Shown here: in pieces, positions 1-49,322 of the stretch | Layout: every line of letters begins with the position of its first letter | Position numbering within the stretch: the first letter of the stretch is position 1 | Origin: Hormiphora californensis | Lineage: Eukaryota; Animalia; Ctenophora | Direction: 5' to 3' | NCBI GenBank assembly: GCA_020137815.1 | Contig: CM035356.1 | Location: 3,224,001 to 3,288,000 of the forward strand | Length of the DNA stretch: 64,000 bases | The notes under the pieces: model-generated | Told to the model about the DNA's origin: nothing | Seen by the model: only the letters and a program-made list of their open reading frames with translations | Database searches by the model: none | Made by a program: the position numbers and the translations under genes

Positions 1-2027
1 TTGGCACGGAGACAGTCGTAGTAGTGGAGCAGCTCCAGTTTGTCCTTCATCTCCGCTTCGAACTCTGGAGAGAAGGATAAAGGAGGGGTTGTTAGAGGGA
101 TAAAGGAGGTGTTAGAGAGATCAGGAGGGGTTAGTAGGAGGGGGATAGTTAGGGGGCAGAGGTAAGCAGGCTGTCTTTCGCTTGTTATGTTCTAACCCTT
201 CTTTACATTTCGCGGGCGCGGGTGCACAAAACACAGTCTAGCTAGGTAATCTTTCGCGTGTTGAATAGTCTTCGGTCCCCGGTGTGAGCCGACAGACTGG
301 GAACATGTCAAGTGAAACCCCTCCTTTGCAGCTTACCTTCGTTGTTGGGTGCATAGTGGAAGTAGAGGTATCCTCCCCAAGCCTCGTCACTGCCCTCCCC
401 ACTGAGGACCATCTTGAAGCCCAGACTGTGAATCTTCTTGCCCAATAGGTAGTTTGGCGTAGAGGACCGAACAGTGGTGGTGTGGGGTGTTTCTATCTTC
501 CTAATCACCTCCGGGACAAGATCAATGCCCTCCGCTAGGGAGTACTTGAACTCATGATGGATGGAGCCTATGTGGTCAGCCACCGCACGTGCAAACTTGA
601 AATCCGGGGCATTTTCAAGGCCAATGGTGAAGGTGTGTAGCTCGTGTTCGGGACCGAGGATCTTCCTAGTGAATGCGGCAACTAGTGATGAATCAAGTCC
701 ACCGCTTAGTAACACCCCACTTGGGCAATCACAGGGAAGCATTCTCTCTACCGCTTTATACATTGCGTTGTAAACTCTATCATACACCTCCTCCTCCTCC
801 ATGCCTCCTGGGGTGAAGGGTGCTGGAACCCAATGGTCCATGGTATACCATTGTGTCACCGCCCCCATGGTTGGGGGTCCGTGGTAGTAGCACCGAGGAG
901 GGAAGTTCTCCACCCGCTCACAGACACCCACCAGACATTTCTGCTCACTGCTCACATACAGCCTTCCCTTGCTATCACTACCCCAGTATAGGGGGATGAT
1001 GCCCATGTGATCACGTGCGATGAACACCTTCCCAGTCTTGTTATCCACCACCACCGTAGCGAACATGCCGTTCAGCAGCTTGGGAAGATCAGTGCCCACT
1101 TTCTCAAAGAGAGCAGGGATCAGCTCACAGTCACTCCGACCCACCGGCTCGATCTTGTGGTCTTCCTCCAGGGCCTTGTGGTTGTAGATCTCTCCGTTGG
1201 TCATGCCGGTGTACTGGCCAAAGGTGAACGGTTGTCTACCTACAGCGGGGGAGGAGGGGGTCAGTTATTTATATAGGTATTACCCAGTGAGGGTGGGGGG
1301 GGGGGGTGGTCAGTTCTTGAGAATTGTGGGGACTGGGGGAATTATATGGCGGTTAGTGTTTGTTATAATATGCTGTTGAATTATTTCAGACGTCGGGTCA
1401 TCATGTGAGAGAGAGGGTAAGAGAGGGAGAGAGTGAGGGAGGAAGGAAGGAAGAAGATGGATCGTGAACTGGCAATATAATGATATTTTAGAGGCGTGTT
1501 TGTTAGGTCACAAGCGTGATAATGTCACATATAGTGTTCCTTGGACAGCTAGTTTTGTGGAACACCTACCAGAGTCAGATCTGCAGTATTTGTCAATGTT
1601 CAGTTTCTGCCTTACCTGAGTCAGATCTGAAGTATTTTTCAATGTTCAGTTCCTGCCTTACCTTGTTAAGTAAGGGGTACTCGACTAGCCTTACCTGAGT
1701 CAGATCTGTCCATAATGTTGAGTCGAACAAAGCAGAAGAGTCCGTTAGCAACTGGGTGGCAATAGAAATCATCGGGGCCCCTGTGTACCTGAAATTGTTT
1801 TTGAAAGCTGAAGTTTATCATTTAGGAACAAATTGATTATATGGTTAGGTGGAAATCCACATGTTAATCAAGATATCAGATATTCATGTTGGTATTAACT
1901 ATTATCATTATGGAGTTTGGAGTCTTGTTTCTTCACCGGTTTATTTTCTAGTTACCTGTTTTAAAGCACTTTCCACGCACAGCGCCCTGTCACAGTCCTC
2001 CCCAAAGCATGCAAATATACCACACAT
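1..2027 (-). CDS. ASNS: Asparagine synthetase (glutamine-hydrolysing), 5' part; exons 2027-1956, 1788-1695, 1239-337, ~65-1 (continues beyond window)
   Basis: Spliced translation MCGIFACFGE...VHRGPDDF...TNGEIYNH...ARDHMGIIPLY...LLSGGLDSSLVA...VLSGEGSDE...LHYYDCLRAN. N-terminal Cys nucleophile, HRGPD and SGGLDSS motifs; GT-AG introns with matching phases. Confidence 0.95.
1566..1708 (-). repeat. Degenerate duplications of ASNS exon-2 end plus donor site
   Basis: cttacctgagtcagatctg occurs at the true donor (~1690) and again at ~1611, with a degenerate copy at ~1568. Confidence 0.8.
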
Positions 2028-3155
2028 ACTGCTGTTATACTGCTAGGAAATATGAACTGATTAGTTATGTAGTGGAGACTGGAGTATTATTATTAGTATT
2101 ATTAATATTATTATACACCGGGAAGGGGGAGCTAGGTCGGAGTTCACATAGAAAGCGAGAACTCGTTGTTCAATCAGTCTATCCAAATGGTTTACCCGTG
2201 ACTCCTAGCCTGTTTCATTAACTGATCACGTATGAAACGCTGCAGTCTGCACACGTACGTGTGGATAGCTACACGTTACTTGAAGGGTTCAAGATGTTGG
2301 CCTATATAATGTTCTAATTGATACAAGCTGACAGTGCTGGTGGCCTTGGCTTGAATTCGTTTCATCTAGTCTCGGGACTCACATGAACATTGAACAGTGC
2401 ACTCGGTCTACTTTATATCAGTTATACCTTCCACACTTGCCGCTTAGAAGCTATACCAATCACATAACGAGAGAGTGTGGGCACAGTAGACAGAACACAC
2501 GTCCCTATCTGTTTCGAATATAATGTGGCACATGCCCCGATATATCAAGCTAGAGTGGTGAATGATATAGATAGCAGAAGTTCTTTCTTTAGATCGCGTT
2601 TTAGACGTTAAAATTGATATTTTTATTAAACCTTCAAAGACTAGACTTCATGTAGGCGTGACGGCACCCCGGCGGCCGGCCCAAGCTACTAAAATTGTGT
2701 GTAGCTGATCCCACTGCTTTCTATTTCATAAAATGATAGAGCGAGCACGCTCTGTGAGGGTTCAGTAGATCAACTGAAATGACCTGAAATTGTATTGCCC
2801 TATCTTTATGTGTGTGTCTAGACACGCCGCCACACGCAAGTGGCTTGGAATTGATTTGTTGACAGATTTCTCCTCTGGTTTGATATTTACCCACTTATCA
2901 ACCTTTGTGTTTGCTTGCCGAATGAAGAGTTTGTCTAAATGCTAATCAGTGGAAAGCCCATCTCTATTGAATCTTGAATATAAAAGAGCCCCTTCCGATT
3001 GGTGAAGCAGTCACCCTTACAACTCGTGCGCGTAGCACGCCAATACGAAGCCCGTGTAGCGGGCTGAGTTGTCTCGCAGAGAGGTGACGTTGCTAACAAT
3101 CCTTCCGATCAGTACGGGCGCCCCCTTCATTCCTATATTAGCCCGGTATATAATG

Positions 3156-3181
3156 TGCCGTTAAATCGGGGTCCGACTGTA
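3156..3181. mobile_element. Solo terminal inverted repeat of the pogo/Tigger-like MITE family at 51119-51984
   Basis: gtgccgttaaatcggggtccgactgta is identical to the right end of the 51119-51984 element. Confidence 0.7.
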
Positions 3182-3236
3182 CTGCTAAATCGTTATTTTC
3201 TTGAGTCCCTTATATTCCTTCATAATATAGCTGCAG

Positions 3237-3328
3237 ATGACGACTCACCCGTTATTCCTAATATAGCCATCACCATGACGACTCACCCGTTATTCCTAAT
3301 ATAGCCATCACCATGACGACTCACCCTG
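3237..3328 (+). repeat. 38-bp tandem repeat covering acceptor-like AG plus start codon of the GPCR
   Basis: atgacgactcacccgttattcctaatatagccatcacc repeated; ATG at 3237, 3275 and 3313, only the last is open. Confidence 0.85.
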
Positions 3329-5418
3329 GAACCCTCCTTTGTGTCTCGTTCTGCTATGCTGCTGTGGCAATAGCTGCCACATTTGGAAATCTATACGGAA
3401 TCATCAAAATATCCGTACTGTGCAAGGTATGTAGTCACTCCGATGTAGTATCCGATCTGTTCACGTTCTTACTTCAAACCCCTCCTTGGCCTTCCTAGCT
3501 TCTTTGATCCCCCAACACACACTGTACGGTGAGAGGATACAGGGATCCTATGACATTGGAGCAGGGGGAAGAAGTACGACCTAAGTTACCAGCTCAGCTA
3601 ACTATGTGTTTCAGATGGCAAATGATAGGGACAAGACGAGTTTACGAAAGACCAACCTACATCTCCTTCTCCACATGTGTCTCAGTGACATGTTGACCGG
3701 GGCTCTGGCTGCCCCTTTTACTGTCATCACACTAGTCATTCAGGTAGAGACTCTATACTTATTATTCAGCTAGCACGTGTTTTAGGAAACTGTCAGGCAA
3801 TACTGACCCCTCTATTCTCCCCCTCTCCAGGCTTCAGGCAATGCTGACCCCTCTATTCTCCCCCTCCAGGCGTCAGGCATCACTGACCCCTCTATTCTCC
3901 CCCTCTCCAGGCTTCAGACATCACTGACCCCTCTATTCTCCCCCTCTCCAGGCTTCAGGCAACACTGACCCCTCTATTATCCCCCCTCCAGGCTTCAGGC
4001 AATACTGACCCCTCTATTCTCCCCCTCCAGGCTTCAGGCAACACTGACCCCTCTATTATCCCCCCTCCAGGCTTCAGGCAACACTGACCCCTCTATTCTC
4101 CCCCCTCCAGGCTTCAGGCAACACTGATCCGGACATCCCATGGCTTCACCGGTACATGTGTAATGTGTCCGGGTTCGTGCAGTGTACCACGTGCCGCATG
4201 TCCCTACTTGTAACCATGCTGCTAGTCACCATACGTGCATTAGCAATCTACTCTCCGAAAAAGGTAAAGTCAGGTTTTTGAAGTTGTCTCCCCAAACTCG
4301 TGCTTGCTTAATGCTTACAGCTCGATTACTCCGACCGTCAAAATTTGTCTTTAGATAAATATAGATCTCTGTTAACCTCCCTCCTCCCCTGCAGCTGTCA
4401 GTACGTGGCTTCTACACTGGCACGGTGTATCTTGTTTACAGTCTCTGGATCCTCTGTATAGGTAACAGTGTTGCTGGAGGGGTTACCATAATGTTAATAT
4501 GTTAACATGTTAACATATGTTGCTGTTAACACGATGTTCACCCCTCGGTCCTCCGGTAAACAATCCTTTCGTGTAGTTCTCATTTCTTTATGCTCCACTT
4601 GTTGAGTAAGGGCCGTCATCATGAACAACTCAACAGTACACTCCTTCCAACACTCTGCACTCCTGCAGGTATTGCTGTGATTCATTAACAACTCGACTCC
4701 TTCCATCTCAACTCCCCTCCTTCAGGTATTGCTGTGATTCCGTTCCTTGGTAGCACGGTGTACCACTATGAGAGGCCCCTTGAAATGGGATGGTGGGATA
4801 TCGACGAGATATTCGGAGAGAATGGATTCATCACAGGTACACATAATAGCTGTGCGAATCCCTGTTAGATCTGTCAGCTGCCAATATGCTATATCATGAG
4901 TCTTCCATAGTGTGTACCACTTCTCTGTTAGATTATTCATAGGCTCTGACATTACACTTGTTAGATGTCATAAATTTGTGGACATAGCTCTGATTAGGTT
5001 GTATGTGTTTGTGTCCAAGCAATTGTATGTTCCCCCTCCCTGAATTGTTTCTGAATAACTGAAGTCTGACGTCACATCCATTTTTATGAGAACTCAAGTT
5101 TTCACGTTCATCTAATCAATGTTATGAGCCCAAACTGAAAGTTCTCTCACTCTTTCTCCCTGTAAACCTCACTTTCTCTCTCTACCTCTCAGTTTCTCAT
5201 CTAGGAAATTGGCCCTCGCATATATATGGTGATTGGGATTTGTGGTTTTATAGCTCGGTCAGCTTTTGGAGTCAGGGGTCTCATATAATATGAGTTCTGA
5301 ACTGCTAATGAACCCAGCCCCTATAGATTCATTATGTTTCACTATCACTTGTGCAAAACGTTTTTTCTTATTCAATCTCATTGCCTTTCTCTCTCACTAT
5401 CTCTCTCTCTCTCTCTCT

Positions 5419-5474
<56 letters not shown>

Positions 5475-8400
5475 CCTCTCTCTCTCTCTCCCTCCCCAGG
5501 GTATCTACTGGTAGATACGATTCCCTTCTTTATCCCGGGTAGTGTAGTACTGATTGGAACTGCAGCGGTTCTCTCCGGCCTGAAACGTATCCAAAGGCAA
5601 TCTGATGTCCGGAGGAGATCACAGGTACTAATTAATTAATTAATTGCTTAATTAGAGCAGGTTCGATCCTGAGATTCTTCCTTCAAATTAACCATGTCCC
5701 ATCTCTAAGTATCCCCCTCATATTAATACTAATTCTAGGCCACAACATCTTTCCCCCTCATGTGCTAATTATCCTCCTCCCCTCTCTCCAGGTGACTGCA
5801 ATGGCATCTGGTGGTACTACAGCAGTGGTACCGCGGGCGCCCTCTGGGAAGAGGGTACATTGCCACTACCAGGCTGCCATTACCACCCTACTGGTAGCGG
5901 CCTTATTCCTGGTGTCATATGGGATGTGGTGGATAACGAGCGTCATCACCCTCCTCGCTGAGGTGAGGTTGAGAGAGGTGTTGAGAGATCTATTATAGAG
6001 CCTAAACAGATCCAAACCGCTAGCTCCTCCTAAATTCTACAGTCTAGGCGAGGTTTAAGGCTAGGTGATATCATTAATCTTATAGTGCTCAAATTAGATC
6101 TACCAGCCCAAAGTACACGACTTGGGTGCAGTTAGATTAATTTAATCCGGCTCATAAATTTGAGAGGAGGATTAAAACTAGAATACAAAGTTATACAAGC
6201 TGGAGTACCTATAGGCGTGATACAAAGACAAAGAATACAATACACACTAGAAGAGGGATACATAGCTGAGAAGAAGCCTTTGTTGCACTAGACGGGTTGC
6301 ATAATCGCATAATGCTATGCTGACGTCATTGTGAGAACTGAGAGGGAGGAGACTATAATTGTTAGTTGAAGGGCTTGAAAAGTGGAAACCTACTATATAA
6401 ATCCGATAATATCTTCTATCTATCTATCTACGGAGTGCCTGGGCTTGCCAACGGCAAGCCCACAGGGGACTATCGCAAAGCGATATCGCCGGCACTAGGA
6501 GAATAGCCCCCCTCCCCTCCCCCACCATCAGGAACTGCCCACAGGACAGGTTCCATTATAGGTGGCTTCGGGTTCGGGAGGGTAAACTCCTTCGAGAGTC
6601 GCAGGATATTGATTCTTCTTCCCTATGAGTCTTGGATCTTTGGCTCTCTATCCCTGCGACAGGTGGGGATGAGTTCTTCTAATCTTTCTCTTGGTTCTTG
6701 AGTTTATTTGCTTTCTCGATTAGCTTGATGGCTACCGCGGTATATATTATATGTGTAATGTGAGACCTATCTGTCTGATTAGGATCAATTAAGTCCGATT
6801 AGGTTAGAAGGCTGAACTAGCAAGGATTTGTTCTCAGTCAACAGTTTTGTTTAGTATGTATATATTGGTGGTGGGCGGGGCGGTTCGGGGCGGGTGGAGG
6901 GTATCGCGTAGTGGGGGAGAGAGAGAGAGAACGAATCTTGAACTATAGAAGGGGAGAGAGAGAGAGAGTTAATCTCATGCGAGTGAGAGAGAAATTTTGC
7001 GGGAAATTGAGAGATATAGAGATAAAATAGTTGCTGTTTTGTTCTCTTACTGTGAGAGAAGAAGAGAGGACTTAATAGAGGTTAAATGTAAAATATGGTT
7101 TAGTCGCTGGTATAATATCTTGATATATCAGTATTCAGTATCCTAACCTTAGAACATGTCTGCTAGGCTTTTATATTCTAACCCTTTCTCCACATCCCCT
7201 AATCTAGGTCTGCTAGGCTATATATTCTAACCCTCTCTCCACATCCCCTAATCTAGGCGGGCGTGATTGAGATGCCAGACTCATTCAAGCTGGTGAAAGG
7301 ACAACACAACATCACCATCATGCTATCCCACGGCTTCATGGTCTATCTAAACTGCGCTGCTAACCCCATTCTCTACCACTTCAGGTTAGTGTCTCTAGAT
7401 TATACTCTATGTTATATTTACGGGGTGGGGTGGGTGGGAGGCTACATACCACTGATAACTGTTCTGGGCCAAACTGGTAGTACCATTTTGGCTCAGAACA
7501 GTTATTTGCCTAGCTGGTAATATCGATCAAGGATCAAATCTAGAGTTAAACAATCCACGGAGAAGGAAAGTGGAACGACAGGGGTTAGCTGTAGGCAGTT
7601 AGTAGGCAGCATGACAATCTCGGTAAAATGATAGTACAATATGGTAGTGATAAGCCGGCAGTGAAGTCATGTTCGGCAATGAGCTGTCGACACACATTCC
7701 AAGCGAGATAAGCTGATAATCAGAACAGAAAAGTGAAATCATCGCAAAGTGCATGTGAGATTATATGTGCTAGCAATTGAAAAGTATGAAGCAGACAAAT
7801 TGAAAAGAAGTAGAAGTGATAGTTCTGCTGGCAGGCCAATTTGAAAGAAATGAGAGTAGGGTCAGGCCAATGCTCTGACAGTACAGTTCCGATATAATAT
7901 GTATTCCATTTTGTTGACGTAGCACAATTCACTTCGCGTGTGTTTACTTAGTTAGGTCAACAATATCTGAGGTTCCAATTACACCGTAATCAGTTCAGAC
8001 TTTCAGAGACTAAACGGGGGAGTGGGGTGGTTACCGGTATATTAGTTGTGAAACCGGTTATGACCAAGATCATAATCTCTATAATAGGACCGGGTTTTCA
8101 ATTTTGGTTCCCCAAGGATGGATTCGATCGTGGAGCGCACAGTGATAGTATAGGTATATCCAAACAATGTCGCGATATTGTGACCTTTACGTGCAGAGAG
8201 GATAGTCTTTTGAGAGCGGGAAAAAGTGAAAGTGCTCAGAGAGTCAACTCTAAGTTACTCTACTAGAACCTACAACAAGCTTGTACAATTCTGTTTCGGT
8301 CCACTCTCAATCAATTTTAATTTTTAATTTTAATTAGAGATACGTGGTACACAGCATTCCAGTTTCAAGCGACACAATGTCAAGAGCACTCCCCCCTCCC

Positions 8401-11400
8401 CCTCCCCCCTAACCCCTCCCCCTCCCTTACTAGGTTGTTCAATGTGAGACGACCGGACAGGACCAGGAAGGTGTCTTTCTCAACTCTAGACACAAAGATG
8501 GGCAAGATGTCCGGGTACTTTAAGAAACACAACAATACCGTATCTACAGCCTCCAAGAACAACAATCTACCTGAGGTATGTTTCACACGGCCTCGGCAGA
8601 TCAATGTTTCATCTCCCCATGTATTAAAACTTATTCAAGTGATGCCTGTTGTTATGCATTATTTGGACCTAGGAATACTTGTTATCATGACTGAGTATAA
8701 CAGCTGTGTAATTTGCATCTGCTGATAGCATTGGGATTTGATTAGTAACAGATTGCATTGTGTGTTATGTACAGTTTCAAACTTTTCAACACTACTTTAA
8801 ACAAATTAATTTGAGGATCCGTTTTGCTGCCCCTCGTTAATCCTTCTGAGACTTCTGTTTATCCCTCTCCTTAAAGAAAAGACAAGAGAAGACGTGTCTG
8901 GTTTTTCTAAGTAAACAGATCTCAGAGGACCTCGTTGGGTTATAACCAAGGACGCCAAGACTTGCAAGGAACGGTTCCTCGCGCCTCTATTTACAGGACA
9001 GGATGTCGGGTGTGGCTACCCATGATGTTATAATGTGCAGGAACGATATGGAGGGTAAGTTGCTCGCCACGAGCTACTCTGATAGATGTAAGGGTGCCAG
9101 TATTTTGCAGAGCATTAAGGATGATGCAGTGGAGCCTCCAAGTGGAGCTTCCAAGGCGGTTTTATGGACGATGGTCAAGGAACTATATGGATTGTTACCA
9201 GAAACACGACGCATCTCTACCCACTCATCTGAATCTGTGACATCATTCACAGCTGAAGACTTGAAGGATACACTGGATAAGCTGAAAGAGGATCTTCTGA
9301 GCACACTACCGGATCTGGTTGCCCCCAAGGTTAGTAAGATCTTAGCTCCTGGCAGTGACCAATTGGCTATTCACGCTGTGAATCGCATTGGCTCAGCACA
9401 GGAAACTGTGACACCTGTGACTCCAATTAAGAGGTATCTGACTATCAAGGATAAAGGTGAGGAAGGACCTATGTGTGAGAAGAAGTGGACTACTGTCGTG
9501 AAGACAAAGGTGGAGAAAGCATTGAATAAGATTCCAGTCCTAGATCTTTCAGTCACCAAGAGGAGGACAAATCTTATGTTTGAGACCGATGAACAGTTGG
9601 AACAGGCGAAAGAAGTTCTTTCACCGTTCCTTGATGTTTCTCCTGTAGTAGAGAAGGAGAAGAAGAGAGATCCTCGCATCATGATCAATGATCTTGACCA
9701 AGACCTGCTGGAAAAAGATCGCCTTCTGTCAGAGATTGTCAGTGATAAGAATGAGTCTGTGAAGAGACTAGTTGAGGAGGGTCACCTGGTGAAGGTGGTC
9801 CATGTAAACAGAACAGGAAGATATGCAGTGTTCCAGGTCTCTCCAGAAGTGAGGAAGGCGATATCAGAAAGGAAGGACAAGCTATTCTTGAAACTTCGAC
9901 AGCATTCAGTGAGGAACAGGTTTTATGTCACGCAGTGTTTCCACTGTCAGCGCTTTGGCCATGTAGCAGGATCCATCTACTGCCCAAACAAGGATAAATC
10001 TCCGGTTTGTGCCTTCTGTACGGGAGATCATGACACGAGGAGTTGCCATGCCAAGAAGGAAAATGTAGTGAGCAGGATGAAATGTGTCAACTGTGATCAT
10101 GGAGGAAGCAGAGAGGACAAGCGCCATGCTCAAAGTCACCCAGCCTCCAGCAGTATGTGTCCATTCTATGTAAATGCTAAAGGAAGACTCATGGAGAGTA
10201 CCAGTGGAGTAACAAAGCAGGAAAAAAACGTGTACCTGACGAGGGCATGGGAGGATCTGAGAGGAAAACGTCTTGGAGGATTGGCACACTAAACGTCCAT
10301 TCTATTATGAATAAAACGTCAGGTGTAATTACACACTTGGAGGAAAAAGGATGCGACTATCTGCTTGGTACAGGAGACTTATCTGAAACAGAGTGACACA
10401 GCTAAACTTCAGGAGATCAGAGACTATGGTTGGAATATCTTCTCCTCGCCTAGAGCGGAACGTTCAGGAGGTGGAATTGGAATCTTGTACAGGGATGGTG
10501 TCAAGTTGAAATACACTCCGGTAAAAGCCAAGTTTAAATCGTTTCAAGTCCAGGAAGCCCTTATTGGAGGAGGAAAAGATGTAACGAGGCTGTGCAATAT
10601 CTATAGACCTCCGTATACTGGCAAGGCACGGTTTACGGAAGCCCAGTTCTTGGATGAGTTTACTGATTATTTGTCAGAGTTGGTCTGCAAAACGGGGAAC
10701 CCTATCCTGATGGGGGACTTTAACTTCCAGGTTCAAGATACTCAGAACTTCTATGCGAAGAAGTTGCTTGGACTACTTGACTCTCTTGGATTTGATCAGC
10801 GGGTCCCACTACAACCTACTCATGTTCGTGGTGGTACTTTAGATCTGCTTCTCTGCCAAAAAGACAGATATTCTAAGGTTCAATCAGTTGAAGTATTTCC
10901 TGACGGAACGACCTCTGATCATTTTCTTGTATTGGCGGAGCTGTGTATAGAAACTGTTGCAAGTGAATACAAGACTCGTGAAAAAGTGGACATGTACAGA
11001 GATTTCAAGGCTGTTGATATTGAAATACTTCGATATGCTTTTAGGAGCGTGGATTGGAGTGAAGCGATGGAATCTGGATCAGCTGAGGAGGTCTTGTTTA
11101 TTTATATGAGGAAACTTGAGGAACTTGTGGATAGGACTGTCCCGTTGAAGAGGAGAAAGAAGAGAGGAGCTACGCTGAGGCCATGGAGAGATAATCCAGA
11201 GGTGCGTCAAGTTCTTCGTCAGCGGCGGAATGCTGAGCGAGCCTGGGAGAACAATAAAACCAGCGTCACGAAGAAGCATTTCAATGAACTCAAGAGGCAG
11301 TTTGGGCGTGTTGACAAGGAAGCGAGGACGAAATACGTCAAGGAAGACTTGGAGGAGTCCAGAGATGACCCTAAAGCCCTTCAAAGGAAACTGAACCGTC

Positions 11401-14400
11401 TACTTGGTAATACTGAGACCTTTATGCCTGAAACCACAGATAAGCAGAGGTTAGCGGATGACTTTGCGGACTTCTTTGTTGGAAAAGTTGATAAGATCCG
11501 GTCTACTGTTATTGGAGAGAAGAATCTGAGGACTAAGAGGAACCCTATTCATCAGACACCCGTCTGTTGTTTTGAGGAATTTGAGGAAGTTTCCCCAGAG
11601 AAACTAAAGAGGATAATCAAAGACATGCCAGACAAGACATGTGATCTTGACCCTATACCGACTTGGTTAGTGAAGGGGTGTATGCATGAGCTAGCTCCAG
11701 TCTTGTGCAGGTTTATTAACCTATCTCTTGGATGTTCCAGTGTTCCTGAACTTCTCCAGCAAGCTTTGGTGTTTCCCACGATTAAGAACCCTTATGGCGA
11801 TAAGGACACTTTGACCAATTATCGGCCAGTCTCCAACCTATCTTTTGTCTCCAAACTTCTTGAAAAGATAGTTCTAGAGCAGCTCAACTCGTATCTCAAT
11901 GAGAACGAGTTACTAAATAAGCATCAATCAGGTTACAGGGTGAATCATAGCTGTGAAACCCTACTGATGGGTATGTTTGATGATCTCCTTCGGGATATGG
12001 ATGAAGGAAAGGTCGCAGGCCTCTTTCTATTAGATATGAGCGCCGCTTTTGACACAGTGGACCATGGAAAGCTGCTAGAAGTTCTTGAAGGACGGTTTGG
12101 AGTGAGGGGTTCTGTCTTGGATTGGTTCGCCAACTATCTACAAATGAGGACTTATCGGGTAAACGTGGAAGGGGAACTTTCGAGGATTGTCTCTCTGATT
12201 TGTGGAGTTCCGCAGGGTTCACTGCTTGGACCTGTGTTGTTTTTACTGTATGTGGAGGAATTGCAAGATTTGGTCAAACCTTATGGCTTGAGGATTAAAC
12301 TTTATGCTGATGACTCGCAATTGTACATCAGCTTTGTACCAACTGATGAGGAAAACTGGAAACTGGCAAAGGAGAGGACTGAGGAATGCTTGTCAAGTGT
12401 GAAAGAGTGGATGAGTGAGCACTGGCTAAAGTGCAATGAGGCAAAGACTGAATTCCTGCTGTTAGGCAAAAACAGTGCCCTGGATAAGATGGTGTATCAG
12501 CCCACTGTGGACTTTGGTGGAGTGGAGATAAGCCCAGTGGACTTTACGGGTAATGCAGGAAAAACACTAGGAGTGTTCCTTGATAGCAACCTCTCAATGG
12601 AGAGACAAATCAACAGTGTTAAGAAACAATGTGGTTTGCTTTTGAAGAATCTATGGCAAGTAAACCGATGTCTGGATAAATCGACCAAGATACTCCTTGT
12701 TAAGCAGCTCATCATTTCAAGATTGGATTATTGTAATGTCCTTTACCATGGCTTACCTAAGAAGCTTCTCAACAGCCTTCAGAGAGTCTTGAACTCGTGT
12801 GTCAGATTTGTTTATGGCCTATACGGTCACCAAGACACCTACATGCCATACTTGAAAGAGTTGCATGTTCTTCCTGTGGAACAACGAGTCACGTTCAAAG
12901 CATGCCTCATGGCGTACAAGATTGTACATGGATTGGCCCCTGACTACCTGCAAGATCAGGTCCCTGTTGATGATGGACTTCATGTGATCCGGGCTACTAG
13001 AGGAAATGCTTGGCCTGATGGCCTCAAGCTGAAGTACCCTAAGCTATCAAGTGTCAATGCGACTTCCAAGTTGAGAAGAAGACGTCCGTCGGTTTACCTG
13101 CCTGAAGTCTGGAATGGGCTTCCCCTTGATCTGAGAGCTGTTGAGTCTGTGGAATCTTTCAAGTCTAAGCTCAAGACTAGTCTTTTCACTGAGGCTTTTG
13201 GTGAGACTGGACTGTCCTCTTAACACTCTCCTTCTTGCTGAGGTATGTGCTCTGGCTGGTACCCGTTTTTAATTGTTTTTCTGTATTATAGCTCGTGGCG
13301 AGCAGAAGTGTGAAGCATAAATTGGGGTTTTTCATAGCACGAGTGTTTTTCTGTGTTTCCAATCTACGGACTTTTATATCAATTTTTAGAGTTCCAGGAC
13401 TCTAACTCAGTCTGTTATGTATTCAGTCACCGATAGTTATGTGAGCCGATAGTAATGTGAGCCGGTGTATTTTTTCTTTATTATTTTTTTTTTTGTTCTA
13501 TTAGGGATAAGTTTGCGAGGTCTTACCAGTATATTAACCGTTCAGATCATCCTTCAGTGACAGTAGCAGTTCTGCTGCTCTGTCCCTGTCGGATATGGGC
13601 GGAATATAAACATAGTTATTATTATTATTATTATTACATGTGCACTAGCAAACTGAGAATTGGGGCGGGGGCGCTAAAATGCTGAAAAACAAAACTGAAT
13701 GAAAAATTGAATGAAACGATTACCCTGCACCTCATGCATAAGCGCGCTATGCTCCGATATTTCGCTACAGCTGAAGCAAGCTGTTCCTTTTTTCTTACCA
13801 CAGCAGGATTTCATGTTGATTCAATTGCTCTCTACGTGTTGATGATCTGCATCTCTCCTCTTGCTATTATGTTGTATTGTTGAGTAAGGGGTTACTCAAC
13901 AAGTTTATATGTTGTCAGACTCAGCATCTGAATGTGTAATTGTTTGCTTTTTGTATCTGCTGAAGCTGTGTGTTTGCCTGCAGCAGCTGTATAATTTCCT
14001 CACGACCCCCATTGCCCAGCATACCTCCCTGTGTGTGTAGGATAGTGGCAGTGGCACGACAAGACGGACATCCCATCACATCGCCCCTCCTTCTGATTTC
14101 AACTCCGATCATCAGGACGCACCAGCAGTTCGTTCTTTTTGGGAGAGAGTGGTGGATTGGTTGTGGGGAGGAAGAATGCGGGACAGCAGCACTGTGCTAA
14201 ACAATCCCCAAAAAGAGACTATTTCCTCCCTTGGCGTAGTTGTGGAATCATGATGACAAAGAACATAAACATTTGAATGTTATAAAAACGATAATTCGGT
14301 AGAAAACAATATTTCGCTGACCCGCTATCTCAGATTTAATTGTTATGCACAGAGATTTCATTTCTCGGCGTGGAGCATGCCAATATTGTAACAACTTAAA

Positions 14401-14925: not shown

Positions 14926-35513
<20,588 letters not shown>

Positions 35514-36064: not shown

Positions 36065-36782
36065 ATTCATGAGTATCGTATAGGTAGCTCTAGGCTCTCA
36101 AGACTGCTGCTAGGTTCGAGACAGCACGACAAAGCGCACGATTCTGCAACAAGTGTCAAACCTATCAATCGGTGATATATATCCAACAAAAAGGCGTCTG
36201 GTAATTGCAGTAAGATCACCTTTGAACCTTGTAGGATAAGAGAAATGCTTTATAGACAACGCTATAAGTGAGAAATTGGCTGAAATTCATGAGTATCGTG
36301 AGAAATTGGCTGAAATTCATGAGTATCGTATAGGTAGCTCTAGGCTCTCAAGACTGCTGCTAGGTTCGAGACAGCACGACAAAGCGCACGATTCTGCAAC
36401 AAGTGTCAAACCTATCAATCGGTGATATATATCCAACAAAAAGGCGTCTGGTAATTGCAGTAAGATCACCTTTGAACCTTGTAGGATAAGAGAAATGCTT
36501 TATAGACAACGCTATAAGTGAGAAATTGGCTGAAATTCATGAGTATCGTGAGAAATTGGCTGAAATTCATGAGTATCGTATAGGTAGCTCTAGGCTCTCA
36601 AGACTGCTGCTAGGTTCGAGACAGCACGACAAAGCGCACGATTCTGCAACAAGTGTCAAACCTATCAATCGGTGATATATATCCAACAAAAAGGCGTCTG
36701 GTAATTGCAGTAAGATCACCTTTGAACCTTGTAGGATAAGAGAAATGCTTTATAGACAACGCTATAAGTGAGAAATTGGCTG
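36065..36782. repeat. 250-bp unit tandem repeat (~2.9 identical copies)
   Basis: Units start at 36065, 36315 and 36565; each junction contains a doubled 30-mer gtgagaaattggctgaaattcatgagtatc. Confidence 0.95.
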
Positions 36783-38252: not shown

Positions 38253-39975
38253 ATGTTGAAGTTTGTCAGTGTTGCGGTCCTCGTGGTGATGATGTCGTCC
38301 CTTGTCAGCGCTGATCAGGAGGGCTGTTCCTACTACGACCCAGTCCTGGGAGGTGTCTACGGTCTCTGTGATATGAAGGCCTACTGCAGCTACGGGTGCC
38401 ATGTAAGTTCTGTAGGACACTCATAGAAGAATTATATGTTCGGTAACCAATTCTGGTTACACAATCTGATCTCGGATAAGTTTTTAAAACAAGTTTAGAC
38501 TATTAAAAAAGTTTGCTGAGCATTGAGCACGCTACTATATCAGTATTATAGGGCCTAATACTTATAAATGTCAACTTATCCTTCACACAGCGAAACCAAT
38601 GCTGGAAGCAGTGCGGAAACGCCGAGGATATCTGTGTTCGAGAAACCCGAGCCTTCGCCCTTGCCGTTAACAAGGATGGTACGTAACTAAAGTATCTATT
38701 AGTTAACTAATAAGTTGCTAACTAATAACTATTAATAACTACAATAGCTCCACAGAAAACCCTGTCCAGTGTCCAGGCTCTGACTGTAAAATTATTAGAA
38801 ATTAGAAACTATAATATCCCCTTCAGGAACTCTTTTAACCTGTGACTATCACTTCAAGAACTCTTTTAACCTGTGACTATCACTTCAAGAACTCTTTTAA
38901 CCTGTGACTATCACTCCAGGAACTCTTTTAACCTGTGACTATCACTTCAGGAACTCTTTTAACTGTGACTATCACTTCAAGAACTCTTTTAACCTGTGAC
39001 TATCACTTCAGGAACTCTTTTAACCTGTGACTATCACTTCAAGAACTCTTTTAACCTGTGACTATCACTTCAGGAACTCTTTTAACCTGTGACTATCACT
39101 TCAAGAACTCTTTTAACCTGTGACTATCACTTCAGGAACTCTTTTAACCTGTGACTATCACGACGATTGCAAGAACGAGATCGACTTCACCAAAGCAGGA
39201 TCCAGGTAATAATAATATTAATAATCTCTATTATAATTTGGAGATGAACGACGTCGAAGTGGTGGTCGTTCGTTAGGCGGTATCTAAGCGACAGACTGCT
39301 CCTTCATAAAATACTTCATGTACCCAAAGCTGTAAAGCTGTTGCTCACACTTTTGGAACTTCCAGTGGAAGTTTGAAAATGTTTTTGAATGAGTTTTAAC
39401 ATGCCAGTCCCTATAGTTAACAATTCAGTTGCCATGACAACCGTGTTGACGTTGAAAGGGCGAAAAGAACCACCCGGCGAAGCCGGGTGGGTTATCAAAA
39501 GGCCTTACTTGAGGCGCACCCAATGGGTGCGCTAGTCTATATTATAATTTGGAGATGAACGTCGTGATGGCCGTTCGTTCAGCGGTATCTAAGCGACAGA
39601 CTGCTCCTTCATAAAACACGTCATGTACCCAAAGCTGTAAAGCTGTTATATTCACACTTTCTGAAGTTTCAGTGGAAGTTTCTTAATATTTCGAATGACT
39701 TTTAACAGGCCAGTCCCCATAGTTACCAATTCAGTTGCCATGGCAACCGTGTTATTGACGTTGAAAGGGCGAAAAGAACCACCCGGCGAAGCCGGGTGGG
39801 TAATCAAAAAGCCCTTACTTGAGGCGCACCCAATGGGTGCGCTAGTTAACTAAATAAAGATTTTGGCCACACGACCAACTCGACATGTACTCTACGCAAA
39901 GTATTCTAAACTCCCTTCAATTTCTAAACTCACTAAACCATTTCCAGGTGCATCTACTCCGACCCCAAGTGGTAG
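38253..39975 (+). CDS. Secreted cysteine-rich peptide, 111 aa, 10 Cys; exons 38253-38402, 38591-38678, 39136-39205, 39948-39975
   Basis: MLKFVSVAVLVVMMSSLVSA-DQEGCSYYDPVLGGVYGLCDMKAYCSYGCHRNQCWKQCGNAEDICVRETRAFALAVNKDGTLLTCDYHDDCKNEIDFTKAGSRCIYSDPKW*; intron phases 0, 1, 2 are all consistent. Confidence 0.85.
38821..39161 (+). repeat. 31-bp tandem array of acceptor plus exon start (11 copies, 6 CAG / 5 CAA)
   Basis: Unit cttcarGAACTCTTTTAACCTGTGACTATCA; the last copy runs into exon 3. Confidence 0.95.
39224..39845 (+). mobile_element. Head-to-tail dimer of a ~311-bp non-autonomous Helitron
   Basis: Each unit starts TC(T)..tattataatttggagatgaacg and ends with hairpin gcgcacccaatgggtgcgc overlapping CTAG; the dimer is inserted between A and T. 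Confidence 0.85.
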
Positions 39976-43462: not shown

Positions 43463-46400
43463 CTCTCTCTCTCTCCGCCTTTTTTTCTGACTTCGACATT
43501 GAGCTCTTCGTTTAGCTTTTCAAAATATATCTTCATCTACAATCCAAAGCAGCAGCAGGCAAAACTAAAGGTGTAAGTGCCATGGTCTAGCTTTCTGGCC
43601 AACTAAGTTCCATTACAGTGCTGCTTGTAGTGGCATTACCGTAATAATATTACAGTAATAAGACACAGACTTTGCATAACGTGTGGAAAAAAAGTTCATG
43701 TGTCAGCACGTACTAGCGCACTGATTGGCCACGGTTGTGCGTCGTCATACCGTATCTCCATTTTCCATTACCGTTTTCCCACTACAAGCGACCGGGTTAA
43801 TTTTTCTGGCTCAATAATATGCTCTTTTAGTGGCATGAGATGTTTATCTTTGGAGTTCTTACCGGGCTTATTGGATTGGCAAGTCTTTTGGAGACCTCCT
43901 TCGATAAAACATCGGTCTCTACAGATGAGTGTAAATTAGTGGAGGTTGGTGGATATCTCCACGAACAGTGTTTCCTAAACGAGACTACAACATACTACAA
44001 ATGTCCTCTATCAAATATTGTGTACAATGTGTCTCACGAGATTAGTTATAAGGAAACTAATTGTAGAGGTGTTGAATTCAGCACTCATTGTCCTTCTGAT
44101 CCAGGGTTCTACCAGGCATGCGGGCATGAAGGTTGCTCAGAGTATAGAGAACTAACGGGTGACAACTAAAAATTGTCCCTAATTTAAAACGGCTGTATAA
44201 ATTTTTCCTTTTGAGATACAGCTTCGGGCCAGTTATAGAACGATTTTTCAGACAATTTTGAATCGGAATAACATACTGCCAAAGTCTTAAAAGTTCATTT
44301 TCATTGCAATGACCATCAGGTTGTCGCATGTGCTCAACAAAGCATGTAGGAGGAGAATGCAAAATTCCTATTTTAACAGAACGACCATCCATGAAAGAAT
44401 GTCAAATTATGTTGTTGTTGCCAGAATAATCTACTGCAGTTCAAATTAGCTCATTGAAGTTGGTTTGCCAAGTCTAAGTGATTTAAGTTTCGAATGGCCG
44501 GTTAAGGTAATAAACTAGGCAATTGTTACAAATCCTGAAAAGAATTGGGGTAGGTATGTCAATTACGAGGCAGCGTTAAAAAGTTTAAAATTTTTACCGA
44601 AAAAAGGAAAATTGGTTTACAACCAGTGTTGGCTTTCCTTGATAAATTTTTAACAGGGTACGTATCTGGTTGATACCGATCAGAATGGATGTGTATCATG
44701 AAAGTTAGCCAAAGTTCATTTTTGACCTGAAAATGTTCATTTTGGACCAAAAATGTTCATTTTGGACTAAAAATGTTCATTTTGGTCTTTTTCTTCAATT
44801 TTGAGAGCTTTTTCATGAACGGGATCGTGTTCAGCAGGTCAAAATTAGTCGGTTACAACCGGAATTTGCATTCCGACAAATAAAATCTCAAAAAGTTAAA
44901 ATTCGTCTCCACTAATACTGCAAAGTAGGAAAATGTGCAAGAAAAAAAGATGAAAACAAGAATTATTGCATTATGTATTCATAATGCTGTGTTTCCCTGC
45001 CCTACCGTTTCACATGTCAGTGACATTGTCACTGCCAACAGGATCAAGGCTTGGTCATAATGTAATGTGAGATGCATATGATCTAGCTGTCAGTATACTT
45101 CTCACATAGCTTAGAGTTAGCTAACTCCCAATCACATGACACTTGCTAACCAGCTTTTGACATTCCAACTTAACTACTTATATAACATCTCACACTCGAC
45201 TCGCAAGATGAAAATGTGAATGTAACACGCGAAACGCGCGGCAGAGCATTTCATGTTTTGTTGAGTGGTGCGCGCACACACGTCCATCAAACTGTGTCAA
45301 TGAGGTGTTTGATGAAGGAGTAGCTCGTCACTGTGTGCGCGGCTCTAGTTGCTACACCGTTGCCCTCGCAACGAAAGTGTGACCAAAAAATGTCCCTCTA
45401 CCGATTAGATAGTATACCAAAATGTCGTTTTCGAATTCTAACCCTGCTATGCCTTTTTACAAAGTAAAAAGGCATCCGGGTGAATGCCTTCGGCATTCAC
45501 CCGGGCAGGGAAAAAATAAATTTTTCATTATAAAATAGAGTTCTGAAGGTACAGACTGGAAATAATGGTTGTACTGAGTCTCATGAGGCGATTCATATGT
45601 GTGGTTTTTTCGAAATAACGCCCCAAAAAACATTTTTTGATATGAATATGCCCATATATGGGCATACATCGGCCCACGTAATTGGGCCAGAGTAGGACTA
45701 AAATTTTTTTACCAAATGTTTTAAAATGATCGTAGGAACTCATTCTAGGGGTAAACTATGTGAAAATTGGATTTGATTTATGAGTTGGGAAAAATAGCAG
45801 ATTCTGCAATAGAAATGTGGAATGTACCAGTGCCGAAGATGAGATTGGATATTCTTATTTGACCGTTGATGATCATACCACCTGTAAGATGTACGGATCC
45901 GGGGAGATCGTAAAAATTCAAGATAATATGAGGTGTTTTGATCCGACACATTCCGACTGTTTGAGCAGACAAGATCAGACCAACTGCAGTGATCCTGAAA
46001 AGGTTGTTATGCAGTGTCCCTCCCAGGGCTTCCCAACAACCATATCGTTCTGGGGTTATTGTGTGGGTCGTAAACTTTGTGATGATGATTACAATAACGT
46101 TTGTGTTGATCCAGAAATAGGCTGTACCATTCACAAGGGGCAGTTGTGTGATGACCATCGTGACTGCAATAATGGAAGAGACGAAACTTGTAAAGATCTC
46201 ACAAATGTGACTTGCATCAGAAGATTTCACTCTCCAAACGTGGAGAAGAACATCTCCCTACCATTTCCATTGGAGTGGGTCATGGATGGGGAAGTGGACT
46301 GTCTGGATGGAATGGATGAAGATAAGGGTAATTGGAAGATATGCGGATCTGACTATTACACCAGGTATCAAGAGATAGGGACTGAATGCGATGAAGTTCT

Positions 46401-49322
46401 TCTCTGTCCTTTAGAGCGAAACTATATTGACTTAAACAGTCTTTGCGATAGAATAAACACGTGCTCGTTTGAGGAAAAACTGTGTATCGCAGCTCGGCAA
46501 ACTGACGCTGATGTTACAAGCCTCGTCGATACTTTCATCAAAGGTCCCAATGAACAGTTCATTCAGCACTGTTTTCCATTCGGAGCTTCTGACCTGGAGA
46601 GGAAGTTGGGAAAGTGCTACACAGTCGGACACACTGCTGGGCACGTCAAAACGGTTCTTGATGTTCAACAACCTGTGTTCGTAAAGATTCCTGAAACCAA
46701 GGTCGATTGCTCCCATCTTTTTGGTGAAAACTATGTCTATGCTGCTTGCAACGATGTTTGTTTGAATGCTGAATGTCCGCTAAGGGAAATTCCGGGAGAC
46801 ACATGTCTAAATAAAAAGGATTCTGTAGTAGCCCTGGCAGCGACTGAGTTTCCAAGTAAAACTACACTGATCAAAACGGCACAAGTCCCCGGATTCTACG
46901 ACAACGAAATATTCCCGTGTGATAATGATAATTGTGTCTCCTATCGGGATGTCTGCAATCTTAAGGACGACTGTGGTGATGGCTCCGACGAGAAGAACTG
47001 CTCTAATCACTTTGAGTGCAACAACAGTAACATATTGGAACTCATACCGCTATCTTATGTTTGTGATGGCGTGGTACATTGCCGTTATTTCTCAGACGAG
47101 TGCTTTGAAGGTTGCCGCTCTACAAGCCAAAATATCTTCGAGAGCGAATTTCTCCGATATGCAAGCCCATCTATGGGACTTTTATCAACATCCTTGAACA
47201 CTATTTCATTAATTAAATCGGTTTGGGAGTTACGACAACAAGAAACGTATGAAATGTTCCTCAATAAGCTGGCCATCACAATGATAAACCTTGGTGACTT
47301 GATGATTGGTGTATACCTGCTGCTCATCTCTTACTTTGACCATGCCTACAGAGCTGATGGCAACTATTGCCAAGAGAGATATCAATGGTTTAGCTCCAGC
47401 GAGTGTTCCTTCCTTGGAGTTCTGAGCACAACTGGATCACAACTATCACTCTTCGCAATGACAATGCTAAGCCTAACCAGAGTAGCAAACATCGGCAACC
47501 TCATCCAACGGGACTTATTCAGCTACAAGTCTGCTGCCAAGCTTGTGTTTCTCCTAGTTTGTCCTACTTTAGCAAGTTTCGTGATTGCAGTCACACCCAT
47601 CTTGTCATTGACTGAGGACTACTTTGTGAACGGCTTGTACTATCATGAATCACCGCTCTTCATCAGGCCCGTAACTAAGATTAACCACTATAAAGTTTTC
47701 AAGGAGTACTTTGGAGGGCGGTCAGTGTCGTGGGAGAAAGCATCGTTTTCCTGGGAAGTGATCCGTTCAACAGTCAAAGACATGTTTTCGTCAAATTATG
47801 GAGGTAATTACTGTTTTTAATTGTGTATCAATATATATGTTTACATGCTTGATTTTACAATAAATATAATGTTCTAAATCATTTTCAGGTATTCGAAGTT
47901 CGACTGTCCATTTTTATGGCAATGATGGTGTGTGCATTTTCAAGTATCTGGTTACCCGAGATGACCCCCAATGGGTGTTTTCAACAACCATCCTAATGAT
48001 TAATTTCTTGTGTTTCATCTTGATTTTGCTGAGCTATGTATACATCAACTTGAAAACGCAGCAATCCAGCCGGAATGTGGGAGCTGCTGCAGGTGGTCGA
48101 AGCAATAACAAAGCACTGCAAGCAAAAATATCAGCAATTATCCTAACAGACTTTTTTTGCTGGATTCCATTGAGCATTGTTGCATTTCTTCATCTCTCAG
48201 AAGCTGTAAATGCGTCAACTTGGTATCCCTTCTTTTCGATTCTTATCCTTCCCATCAACTCGGTTATCAATCCCTTGTTGTATGACTCCAATTTCTACTT
48301 TGGTCTTCTAAGTATTCCAACACAAGCTATACGTCGGAGTACACGAAGACTAATACTGTTCATACAGAATTCTATCGGCAATCATCAAATGCCTATGGAA
48401 ACAAATCCCCTTGCCCAAGAAACGGCGCTTTGAAAATGCGACCAGTGATTAAATGACGGACAATTGGGACAATGAAAAACCGTTTAGAGACTATCATTTA
48501 TTATCAAGAATATGTATGTGTTAGTTATACTGTGTTGGTATCAACTTAATTTGAGATCAACAATGACAATGAGCAAAGTATCTTGTGTGAATATTATGTT
48601 ACCCTCTGTAATTACTGAATTAAGCTGTTTTATCTGTATTTCTATTTTCTAGGCATGACTGCTTTGAGTCATTACCGTACGACGTACGACAAATATACAG
48701 AAATTTAAATGCAACCTACAGATCTCGTTGATAATGAAATTATAATTAACCCTTATCCGCGCTATAATAGCTCACGGAGCATATAGTCACGGGGTGACTT
48801 CGTAAGCAACAGATCTCAAGTCTTGGTAACCTAGATACACTTTGGTTACGAAGTTACTCCTCCCTTGCCAGCTCGTGAAGGTCACGGGGCGACCTTTAGA
48901 GGGGTTATTACTTATTTCATAGCCAAAGATAAACATACCTCCATGGTTGGTTACCATGGTGACCAACTCTTTCGTAACCTACCTCCATGGCGGCCTTCAG
49001 CTCGTAGGCAGCGTAGTAGTTGAAGTCTCGTGCCACGAGGAGGAGAGATGTGAAGCAGTCTTTGACATGGTGACCTGTCATCTCAGCTAACACCGTAACC
49101 AGTTCATCTGCTGTCTCCTATATGGTAAAATGGAAATTAGGGCCGGAGTCTCAACAGGGAATAGAAGGGATCAGTCTCAATTAATAGATCCTACAATTGT
49201 ATACACTATTATGCCAAAAACTAACAGAAATTAGTTGGCTGAAAAGGTGACCACTTTTGTTGACAAATTGACACCTTTGCCCTCTCCGGGTTTCATCATT
49301 ATCTTTCCCTCTCTAATTTCTA

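What the first reader, a model, noticed from the sequence alone, without database searches (positions are those of the whole stretch)
3792..4127. Eight complete 3' splice sites in a row, seven non-productive
Each 39-41 bp unit has a CTGAC branch-like motif, a polypyrimidine tract and CAG. Upstream acceptors add 280, 241, 200, 159, 119, 80 or 40 nt. The only in-frame one (159) hits TGA, so only the last AG (4110) gives the GPCR. A first-AG scanning model would predict failure.
Basis: partly seen in the sequence, partly recalled or inferred. Interest (0 to 1): 0.7.

Follow-up and report, generated by a model that had tools for sequence, protein, structure and literature searches.

The report
Splice-acceptor mirage repeat, comb-jelly receptor
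The last 23 bases of an intron and the first 17 bases of the next exon of a receptor gene, likely from a comb jelly, are repeated eight times in a row, leaving seven spare splice signals that are likely cut out unused; this kind of repeat is already known from lancelets ("mirages") and humans, and similar copies sit at about ten other likely splice sites in the same stretch of DNA.

Summary
The array is real: 3793-4127, 8.4 copies of 39-41 bp. It is a tandem duplication of an intron/exon junction in an intact 380-codon rhodopsin-class receptor model, 46% identical to a Mnemiopsis protein that aligns without a gap only with acceptor 4110. The seven offsets are right. Two corrections: each unit has a second CAG 7 nt on, and the one at 4077 keeps the frame open (+11 residues); and scanning runs from the branch point, not the donor, so no paradox follows (PMC1431707). 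This is a known kind: lancelet "mirage" minisatellites (PMC3087553), human CBS 844ins68 and F7. The scan has reported the same kind on at least five other genomes. The last copy is likely chosen by exon definition, with decay of mis-spliced RNA; no RNA could test this. Side result: 11 of 27 near-tandem duplications in the window span a likely splice junction, against about 2-4 expected. My searches found no ctenophore report. Ordinary kind, new lineage, tidy test system.

The parts
3793..4127 (+). Minisatellite, 8.4 copies of 39-41 bp; unit = last ~23 nt of the intron + first ~17 nt of the next exon
3615..3743 (+). Upstream coding exon (TM2 region), phase 0; donor GT at 3744-3745
   Evidence: matches P0121 and P0122
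3744..4110 (+). Intron of 367 nt holding the array
3829..4070 (+). Seven upstream acceptor copies (AG ends 3830, 3869, 3910, 3951, 3991, 4030, 4070); all give a premature stop 738-897 nt before the last modelled junction
4076..4077 (+). Second AG of unit 7; in frame, no stop, would add 11 residues after TM2
4084..4088 (+). Branch-like CTGAC of the last unit (A at 4087, 23 nt before the AG end)
   Evidence: use as a branch point is inferred
4109..4110 (+). Exon-proximal acceptor that gives the normal protein
   Evidence: gapless alignment to P0122
4111..4263 (+). Downstream coding exon, 153 nt (ECL1-TM3)
3237..3326 (+). 38-bp x2.4 duplication of a likely 5' acceptor plus the start codon (ATG 3237, 3275, 3313; only 3313 opens the gene)
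   Evidence: acceptor use inferred
4660..4740 (+). Second duplicated coding acceptor (AG ends 4668 and 4725; upstream copy adds 57 nt with a stop)
7158..7257 (+). Third duplicated coding acceptor (AG ends 7207 and 7256; upstream copy shifts the frame)
3313..8575 (+). Host gene: nine modelled coding exons (3313-3426, 3615-3743, 4111-4263, 4395-4461, 4726-4836, 5500-5624, 5792-5962, 7257-7384, 8434-8575), 380 codons with no stop; rhodopsin-class GPCR; 3' end not resolved

Best explanation
This is a tandem duplication of an intron/exon junction (a 'mirage' minisatellite) in an intact receptor reading frame, likely from a ctenophore, and the spliceosome likely uses the last copy (4110), so the seven spare acceptors would leave with the intron. 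Origin (inferred): slippage or unequal exchange between two look-alike 8-nt words 40 nt apart, the branch-like site and codons 5-7 of the exon, then expansion and homogenisation. Choice (inferred): the copies are equally good acceptors, so the choice likely comes from downstream. Only the last copy is followed by the whole exon and by a donor at a normal exon length (153 nt against 193-433 nt). Once that branch point is bound, scanning finds 4110 as the first suitable AG. Leak to upstream copies would make premature stops that nonsense-mediated decay is expected to remove. The array is likely tolerated, not selected.
For: Shown: unit equals intron end plus exon start. Reading frame intact over nine exons; 161 of 347 aligned positions identical to Mnemiopsis P0122 (Pfam 7tm_1, E 1.4e-9) with no gap at this junction. 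The last copy is no stronger than the others by matrix, so local strength does not explain the choice. 16 of 17 modelled internal exons are 196 nt or shorter; 6 of 7 upstream copies would give 233-433 nt. Same layout for donors and acceptors elsewhere in the window: in 9 of 9 arrays tested in a stop-free model, only the exon-proximal copy of the repeated site keeps the frame, and 44 of 44 other copies give a stop. Literature: lancelet mirages retain AG/GT and do not disturb splicing (PMC3087553, PMC3902484, passages); CBS 844ins68 uses the downstream copy (PMC2630376, passage).
Against: No transcript of this gene was seen, so use of 4110 rests on frame and orthology. The first copy would give an 87-nt intron, which an intron-defining spliceosome could prefer. 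The nearest rivals (4070, 4077) give exons of 193 and 186 nt, inside the normal range. Early duplicated-site minigenes disagreed on which copy is used (PMC1557585, passage), and human donor-side arrays in CBS intron 13 and in an interferon-related gene do use one or two pseudo-sites (same paper). The 9-of-9 count is partly circular: the models were built on the exon-proximal copy, and only the receptor and asparagine synthetase have homologue support. The array's 5' edge carries 9 more matching bases than the 8-nt slippage model predicts, so a trimmed ninth copy fits as well.
Confidence: 0.72

Rival explanations
1. A copy-number dial: a real share of transcripts uses upstream acceptors and is destroyed, or uses 4077 and makes a receptor with 11 extra residues, so array length sets receptor dose or isoform.
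For: All 8 main AGs are intact and score high, the first, third and fourth highest; 4077 is open and in frame; human junction minisatellites can use the nearest pseudo-sites (PMC1557585, passage).
Against: With so few substitutions among the copies, intact AGs are expected without selection. The Mnemiopsis protein lacks the 11 residues. The same layout occurs in unrelated genes, asparagine synthetase among them, which points to a mutational habit. 4077 lies behind 4070, which scanning from that unit's branch point would meet first.
Confidence: 0.13
2. Stepwise (recursive) removal: the donor joins an upstream AG, the new junction acts as a donor, and splicing ratchets to 4110.
For: Every main AG in the array is followed by GC and follows CAG, a GC-type donor outline.
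Against: No AG-GT site; the only GT in the array is at 3872, not after an AG. The six distinct GC sites match the GC-donor consensus poorly at +5 and +6 (consensus recalled). The intron is only 367 nt.
Confidence: 0.04
3. RNA structure hides the spare acceptors: each unit folds a small hairpin over its AG.
For: The A of each upstream AG is predicted mostly paired (unpaired 0.15-0.22) and that of 4110 free (0.93-0.94).
Against: The hairpins are no better than shuffles (z -0.65, -1.25, -0.72) and the one over 4110 is the most stable, -9.3 against -7.2 and -7.5 kcal/mol. Whole region z -0.14. Of four other coding acceptor arrays, one shows the same asymmetry and three do not; many single acceptors are also predicted paired.
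Confidence: 0.05
4. The gene is silent or decaying, or the array is an assembly error, so nothing needs explaining.
For: Four duplicated acceptors in one gene could reflect weak selection.
Against: 380 codons without a stop, 46% identity to P0122; a 98%-identical database model P0121 differs by substitutions and a short indel where it aligns. The units carry patterned differences (units 5 and 7 identical, 3 and 4 share a variant), as real minisatellites do.
Confidence: 0.06

Closest known systems
Amphioxus 'mirage' minisatellites, above all globin BflGb6 (also BflGb9, Adh3, troponin C, PGBD5). PMC3087553 and PMC3902484, passages read; the Adh3 paper known only through them
   Same: Tandem copies of the 3' end of an intron plus the 5' part of the next exon; units keep AG/GT; both 5' and 3' boundaries are affected; several genes per genome; unit length inside the 10-160 bp range given.
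   Different: Likely a ctenophore, not a cephalochordate; 40-bp unit against 150-160 bp in BflGb6; four acceptors of one gene affected; normal splicing and length variation were shown there and could not be tested here.
Human CBS 844ins68 (PMC2630376, passage; Romano et al. 2002 seen only as a reference title)
   Same: Duplicated intron/exon junction; the downstream copy is strongly favoured and the mRNA is normal.
   Different: Two copies, 68 bp, against eight copies of 40 bp.
Human F7 intron 7 37-bp VNTR, and the CBS intron 13, lamin B2 and PDGF junction minisatellites (PMC1557585, abstract and passages)
   Same: Array of near-identical, competent splice sites of which the exon-proximal one is used.
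   Different: Donor side; tested in minigenes. The window's 28914-29490 array is the direct counterpart.
Dual-specific splice sites of UBC and recursive splice sites (PMC10809524, abstract only)
   Same: Tandem array of splice signals.
   Different: Those are AG-GT sites that serve as donor and acceptor; this array has AG-GC and no AG-GT.

Membership tests
Mirage minisatellite | Tandem repeat whose unit spans an exon-intron boundary | tested here: met
Mirage minisatellite | Minisatellite-sized unit (10-160 bp in the lancelet cases) | tested here: met
   39-41 bp; range from PMC3087553 passage
Mirage minisatellite | Many units keep the AG or GT signal | tested here: met
   8 of 8 main AGs intact
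Mirage minisatellite | Homogenised units with shared variants | tested here: met
   92% matches; units 5 and 7 identical, 3 and 4 share a variant; no tree built
Mirage minisatellite | Normal mRNA is still made | not testable with these tools
   No transcript of this gene was available; frame and orthologue fit 4110
Mirage minisatellite | Copy number differs between haplotypes | not testable with these tools
   No second DNA copy of the locus; no genome held
Recursive / dual-specific splice sites | AG directly followed by GT, re-forming a donor | tested here: not met
   AG-GC only; single GT at 3872 not after AG
Recursive / dual-specific splice sites | Splicing intermediates or lariats at the inner sites | not testable with these tools
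   needs nascent RNA or lariat reads
Rhodopsin-class (class A) GPCR, host gene | 7tm_1 family match | tested here: met
   Through the orthologue P0122: PF00001, 38.2 bits, cutoff 30.5, 46% identical to the model; Atlas look-alikes of P0121 are 7tm_1 clusters, score 0.94. Single exons and the partial model P0121 do not reach it; the full model was not scanned.
Rhodopsin-class (class A) GPCR, host gene | TM1 GN, TM3 cysteine, TM7 NPxxY motifs (motif set recalled) | tested here: met
   visible in the translation and shared with P0122; the DRY motif is not kept

The most novel reading that the evidence does not exclude
In this ctenophore lineage splice junctions are hot spots for tandem duplication across the genome (11 of 27 near-tandem duplications in 64 kb; four acceptors of this one receptor gene), by a process or a persistence bias tied to the junction itself, and array length works as a heritable dial on gene output through leak to decay or to a longer isoform. 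That would put mirages near the base of the animal tree and give hundreds of natural competition experiments on how a ctenophore picks splice sites.
Probability: 0.12. Interest if true: 0.6.

Novelty: new member of a known kind. Interest (0 to 1): 0.22.

Why it matters
As it stands it is a clean natural case of a described repeat type in a lineage where my searches found none. Eight near-identical acceptors, the last no stronger than the rest, make a ready test of exon definition against intron definition in an early-branching animal: junction reads alone would settle it. It also warns annotators, since such arrays mislead gene prediction. The enrichment at junctions would matter more if it held across the genome, because mirages have been proposed as a source of new introns (PMC3087553).

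Tried and rejected
Expression: no RNA holder listed. The one listed run, X1, laid on 1-5300, gave 11 contig pieces, 10 of them under 90% alike, on the asparagine synthetase gene and a repeat near 5150, none on the receptor exons; it is a relative or another organism and says nothing on this junction. No whole genome is held, so no genome-wide count and no second allele. The representative-protein search never ran, so orthology rests on one named protein, P0122, and one unnamed model, P0121. Pfam on seven single receptor exons: 0 of 7 reach 7tm_1. Hairpin masking: tested, not supported as the main cause. Recursive splicing: no AG-GT. A junction-first count (16-mer centred on the junction, up to 2 mismatches) found 5 of 44 junctions recurring nearby against 20 of 1128 intronic control points outside the arrays (172 of 1360 with them). 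It misses lopsided copies, and four of the seven genes were modelled because of their repeats, so I do not lean on it. The annexin-like model had 6 stops and was dropped, but its 3 acceptors and 3 introns are in the matrix and length lists. The 28469/28407 donor pair was tested only in a model that already had a stop and is left out of the 9-array count, as is the 5' repeat at 3237. One search had the donor one base off and one exon end off; replace them. A search for the classic work on splice-site proximity and exon sequence (recalled: Reed and Maniatis 1986) did not return it, so it is not used as support.

Full report
Observation. Tandem Repeats Finder gives an array at 3793-4127, period 40, 8.4 copies, 92% matches. 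Each unit has CTGAC, a C/T tract and CAG, with the putative branch A 22-24 nt before the AG. Each unit also has a second CAG 7 nt on. Of these 16 sites 14 give a stop, 652-938 nt before the last modelled junction, and two stay open: 4110, and 4077, which adds 11 residues.

Host gene. Nine exons between 3313 and 8575, all introns GT-AG, give 380 codons without a stop. The exon after the array finds one database protein, P0121, 98% identical and carrying only an id. P0121 in turn finds itself and P0122 from Mnemiopsis leidyi, which is a 7tm_1 protein. The model is identical to P0122 at 161 of 347 aligned positions, with no gap at this junction for 4110 and an 11-residue gap for 4077. P0121 joins at 4110 too, but it looks like a predicted model, not a transcript. 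The organism is therefore likely a ctenophore; the id style of P0121 is, from recall and from no call, that of Pleurobrachia gene models.

What the unit is. It is the last 23 nt of the intron plus the first 17 nt of the exon. The branch-like site and codons 5-7 of the exon share an 8-nt word with one mismatch, 40 nt apart, which could have seeded slippage (inference). CTGAC or CTAAC before a C-rich tract is the native acceptor style here: several single acceptors of the window look the same. The 5' edge has 9 more matching bases than this model needs, so a trimmed ninth copy is as possible.

Which copy is used. On a matrix from 24 other modelled acceptors the eight main sites score 13.4-20.0 bits, and 4110 is joint lowest (scores not held out, three training sites from a faulty model). 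So local strength does not pick the last copy. What sets it apart lies downstream: the full exon and a donor 153 nt on. Upstream copies would make exons of 193-433 nt, while 16 of 17 modelled internal exons are 196 nt or shorter. Exon definition is the likely route (inference). Leaks would carry premature stops of the kind that nonsense-mediated decay removes (established knowledge; not tested in this animal). Hairpin masking and stepwise splicing were tested and found weak. No RNA bearing on this junction was available.

It is not alone. A scan for near-tandem duplications (period 20-200, low complexity removed) gave 27 regions. I classed 11 by eye as spanning a likely splice junction: six acceptors (3237, 3792, 4660, 7172, 30341, 38821) and five donors (1567, 17696, 28379, 28914, 61028). 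Three are borderline: 7172 includes one exon base, 28379 needs a gap, and the acceptor at 3237 is only inferred. With 100-200 junctions assumed in the window, 1.7-4.4 are expected; the chance of 10 or more, allowing for the focal array, is 0.006 or less under all six settings. The junction number is my estimate and the classing was after the fact, so this is a lead from one window. In 9 of 9 arrays tested in stop-free models only the exon-proximal copy keeps the frame, and 44 of 44 other copies give a stop; this is partly built in. A simple cause for the excess (inference): one copy at a junction can never be lost, so such arrays persist and keep being homogenised, and C/T tracts slip easily.

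Known systems. Lancelet 'mirages' are tandem repeats across exon-intron boundaries. [quoted passage not shown] CBS 844ins68 duplicates an intron/exon junction and the downstream copy is favoured (PMC2630376, passage). F7 and other human genes have donor-side arrays in which the exon-proximal site, sometimes with one or two neighbours, is used (PMC1557585, abstract and passages). UBC's dual-specific sites need AG-GT and differ (PMC10809524, abstract). The name 'mirage' and the F7 paper came to me from earlier notes of this scan, which report the same kind in at least five other genomes; I then read the passages myself. Four sequence features of mirages are met; normal splicing and length variation could not be tested.

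Novelty. Searches gave no report of such repeats in ctenophores. The Hormiphora genome paper reports 13% tandem repeats and many non-coding indels but, in the passages seen, nothing on junction repeats (PMC8527503); its supplements were not read and could bear on this, and the library lacks most subscription papers. Verdict: a real, neat, new member of a known kind; interest 0.22.

Noticed in passing
window 28914-29490 (-): Donor-side array: 18 copies of a 32-34 bp exon-end/donor unit. The exon-proximal donor matches the consensus less well than most downstream copies, yet only it keeps the frame. Direct counterpart of the human F7 array.
   Followed up: partly
window 38821-39161 (+): Acceptor array of 11 copies x 31 bp in a small cysteine-rich, likely secreted protein gene; 5 of 10 upstream copies have lost the AG (CAA); the last copy's pyrimidine tract is made of copied exon sequence.
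   Followed up: partly
window 30341-30598 (-): Acceptor array of five or more 40-bp copies in the same gene as the donor array; one copy has lost its AG.
   Followed up: partly
window 1567-1708 (-): Donor duplicated twice in an asparagine synthetase gene. The best database hits after the near-identical P0001 are about 45-48% identical and mostly bacterial or unnamed; origin not examined.
   Followed up: partly
window 17696-17772, 28379-28474, 61028-61228 (-): Further duplicated donors; at 61028 a 74-nt exon end plus donor is copied 127 nt into the intron.
   Followed up: partly
window 3229-3326 (+): The 38-bp repeat copies a likely acceptor together with the start codon, giving two short upstream frames; with leader trans-splicing common in ctenophores (PMC8527503) this may be a duplicated trans-splice acceptor.
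   Followed up: no
window 4668 and 7207 (+): These spare acceptors are AG followed by GT, so unlike the focal array they could act as dual or recursive sites.
   Followed up: no
window 8946-13223 (+): Two long open frames (448 and 964 aa) that look like an intact LINE retrotransposon right after the receptor's last modelled exon; the receptor's 3' end is unresolved.
   Followed up: no
window 43831-48433 (+): Large receptor with cysteine-rich LDLa-like repeats and a 7TM part, few introns; family read by eye.
   Followed up: no
window 23740-27120 and 16570-17580: Long palindromic, foldback-like elements seen by eye.
   Followed up: no
window 36065-36782: 250-bp repeat, 2.9 copies, 100% identical, outside modelled genes: very recent or an assembly artefact.
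   Followed up: no
window about 59250-59330 (-) and 59715-59790 (+): Two tRNA-like sequences seen by eye; not scanned.
   Followed up: no
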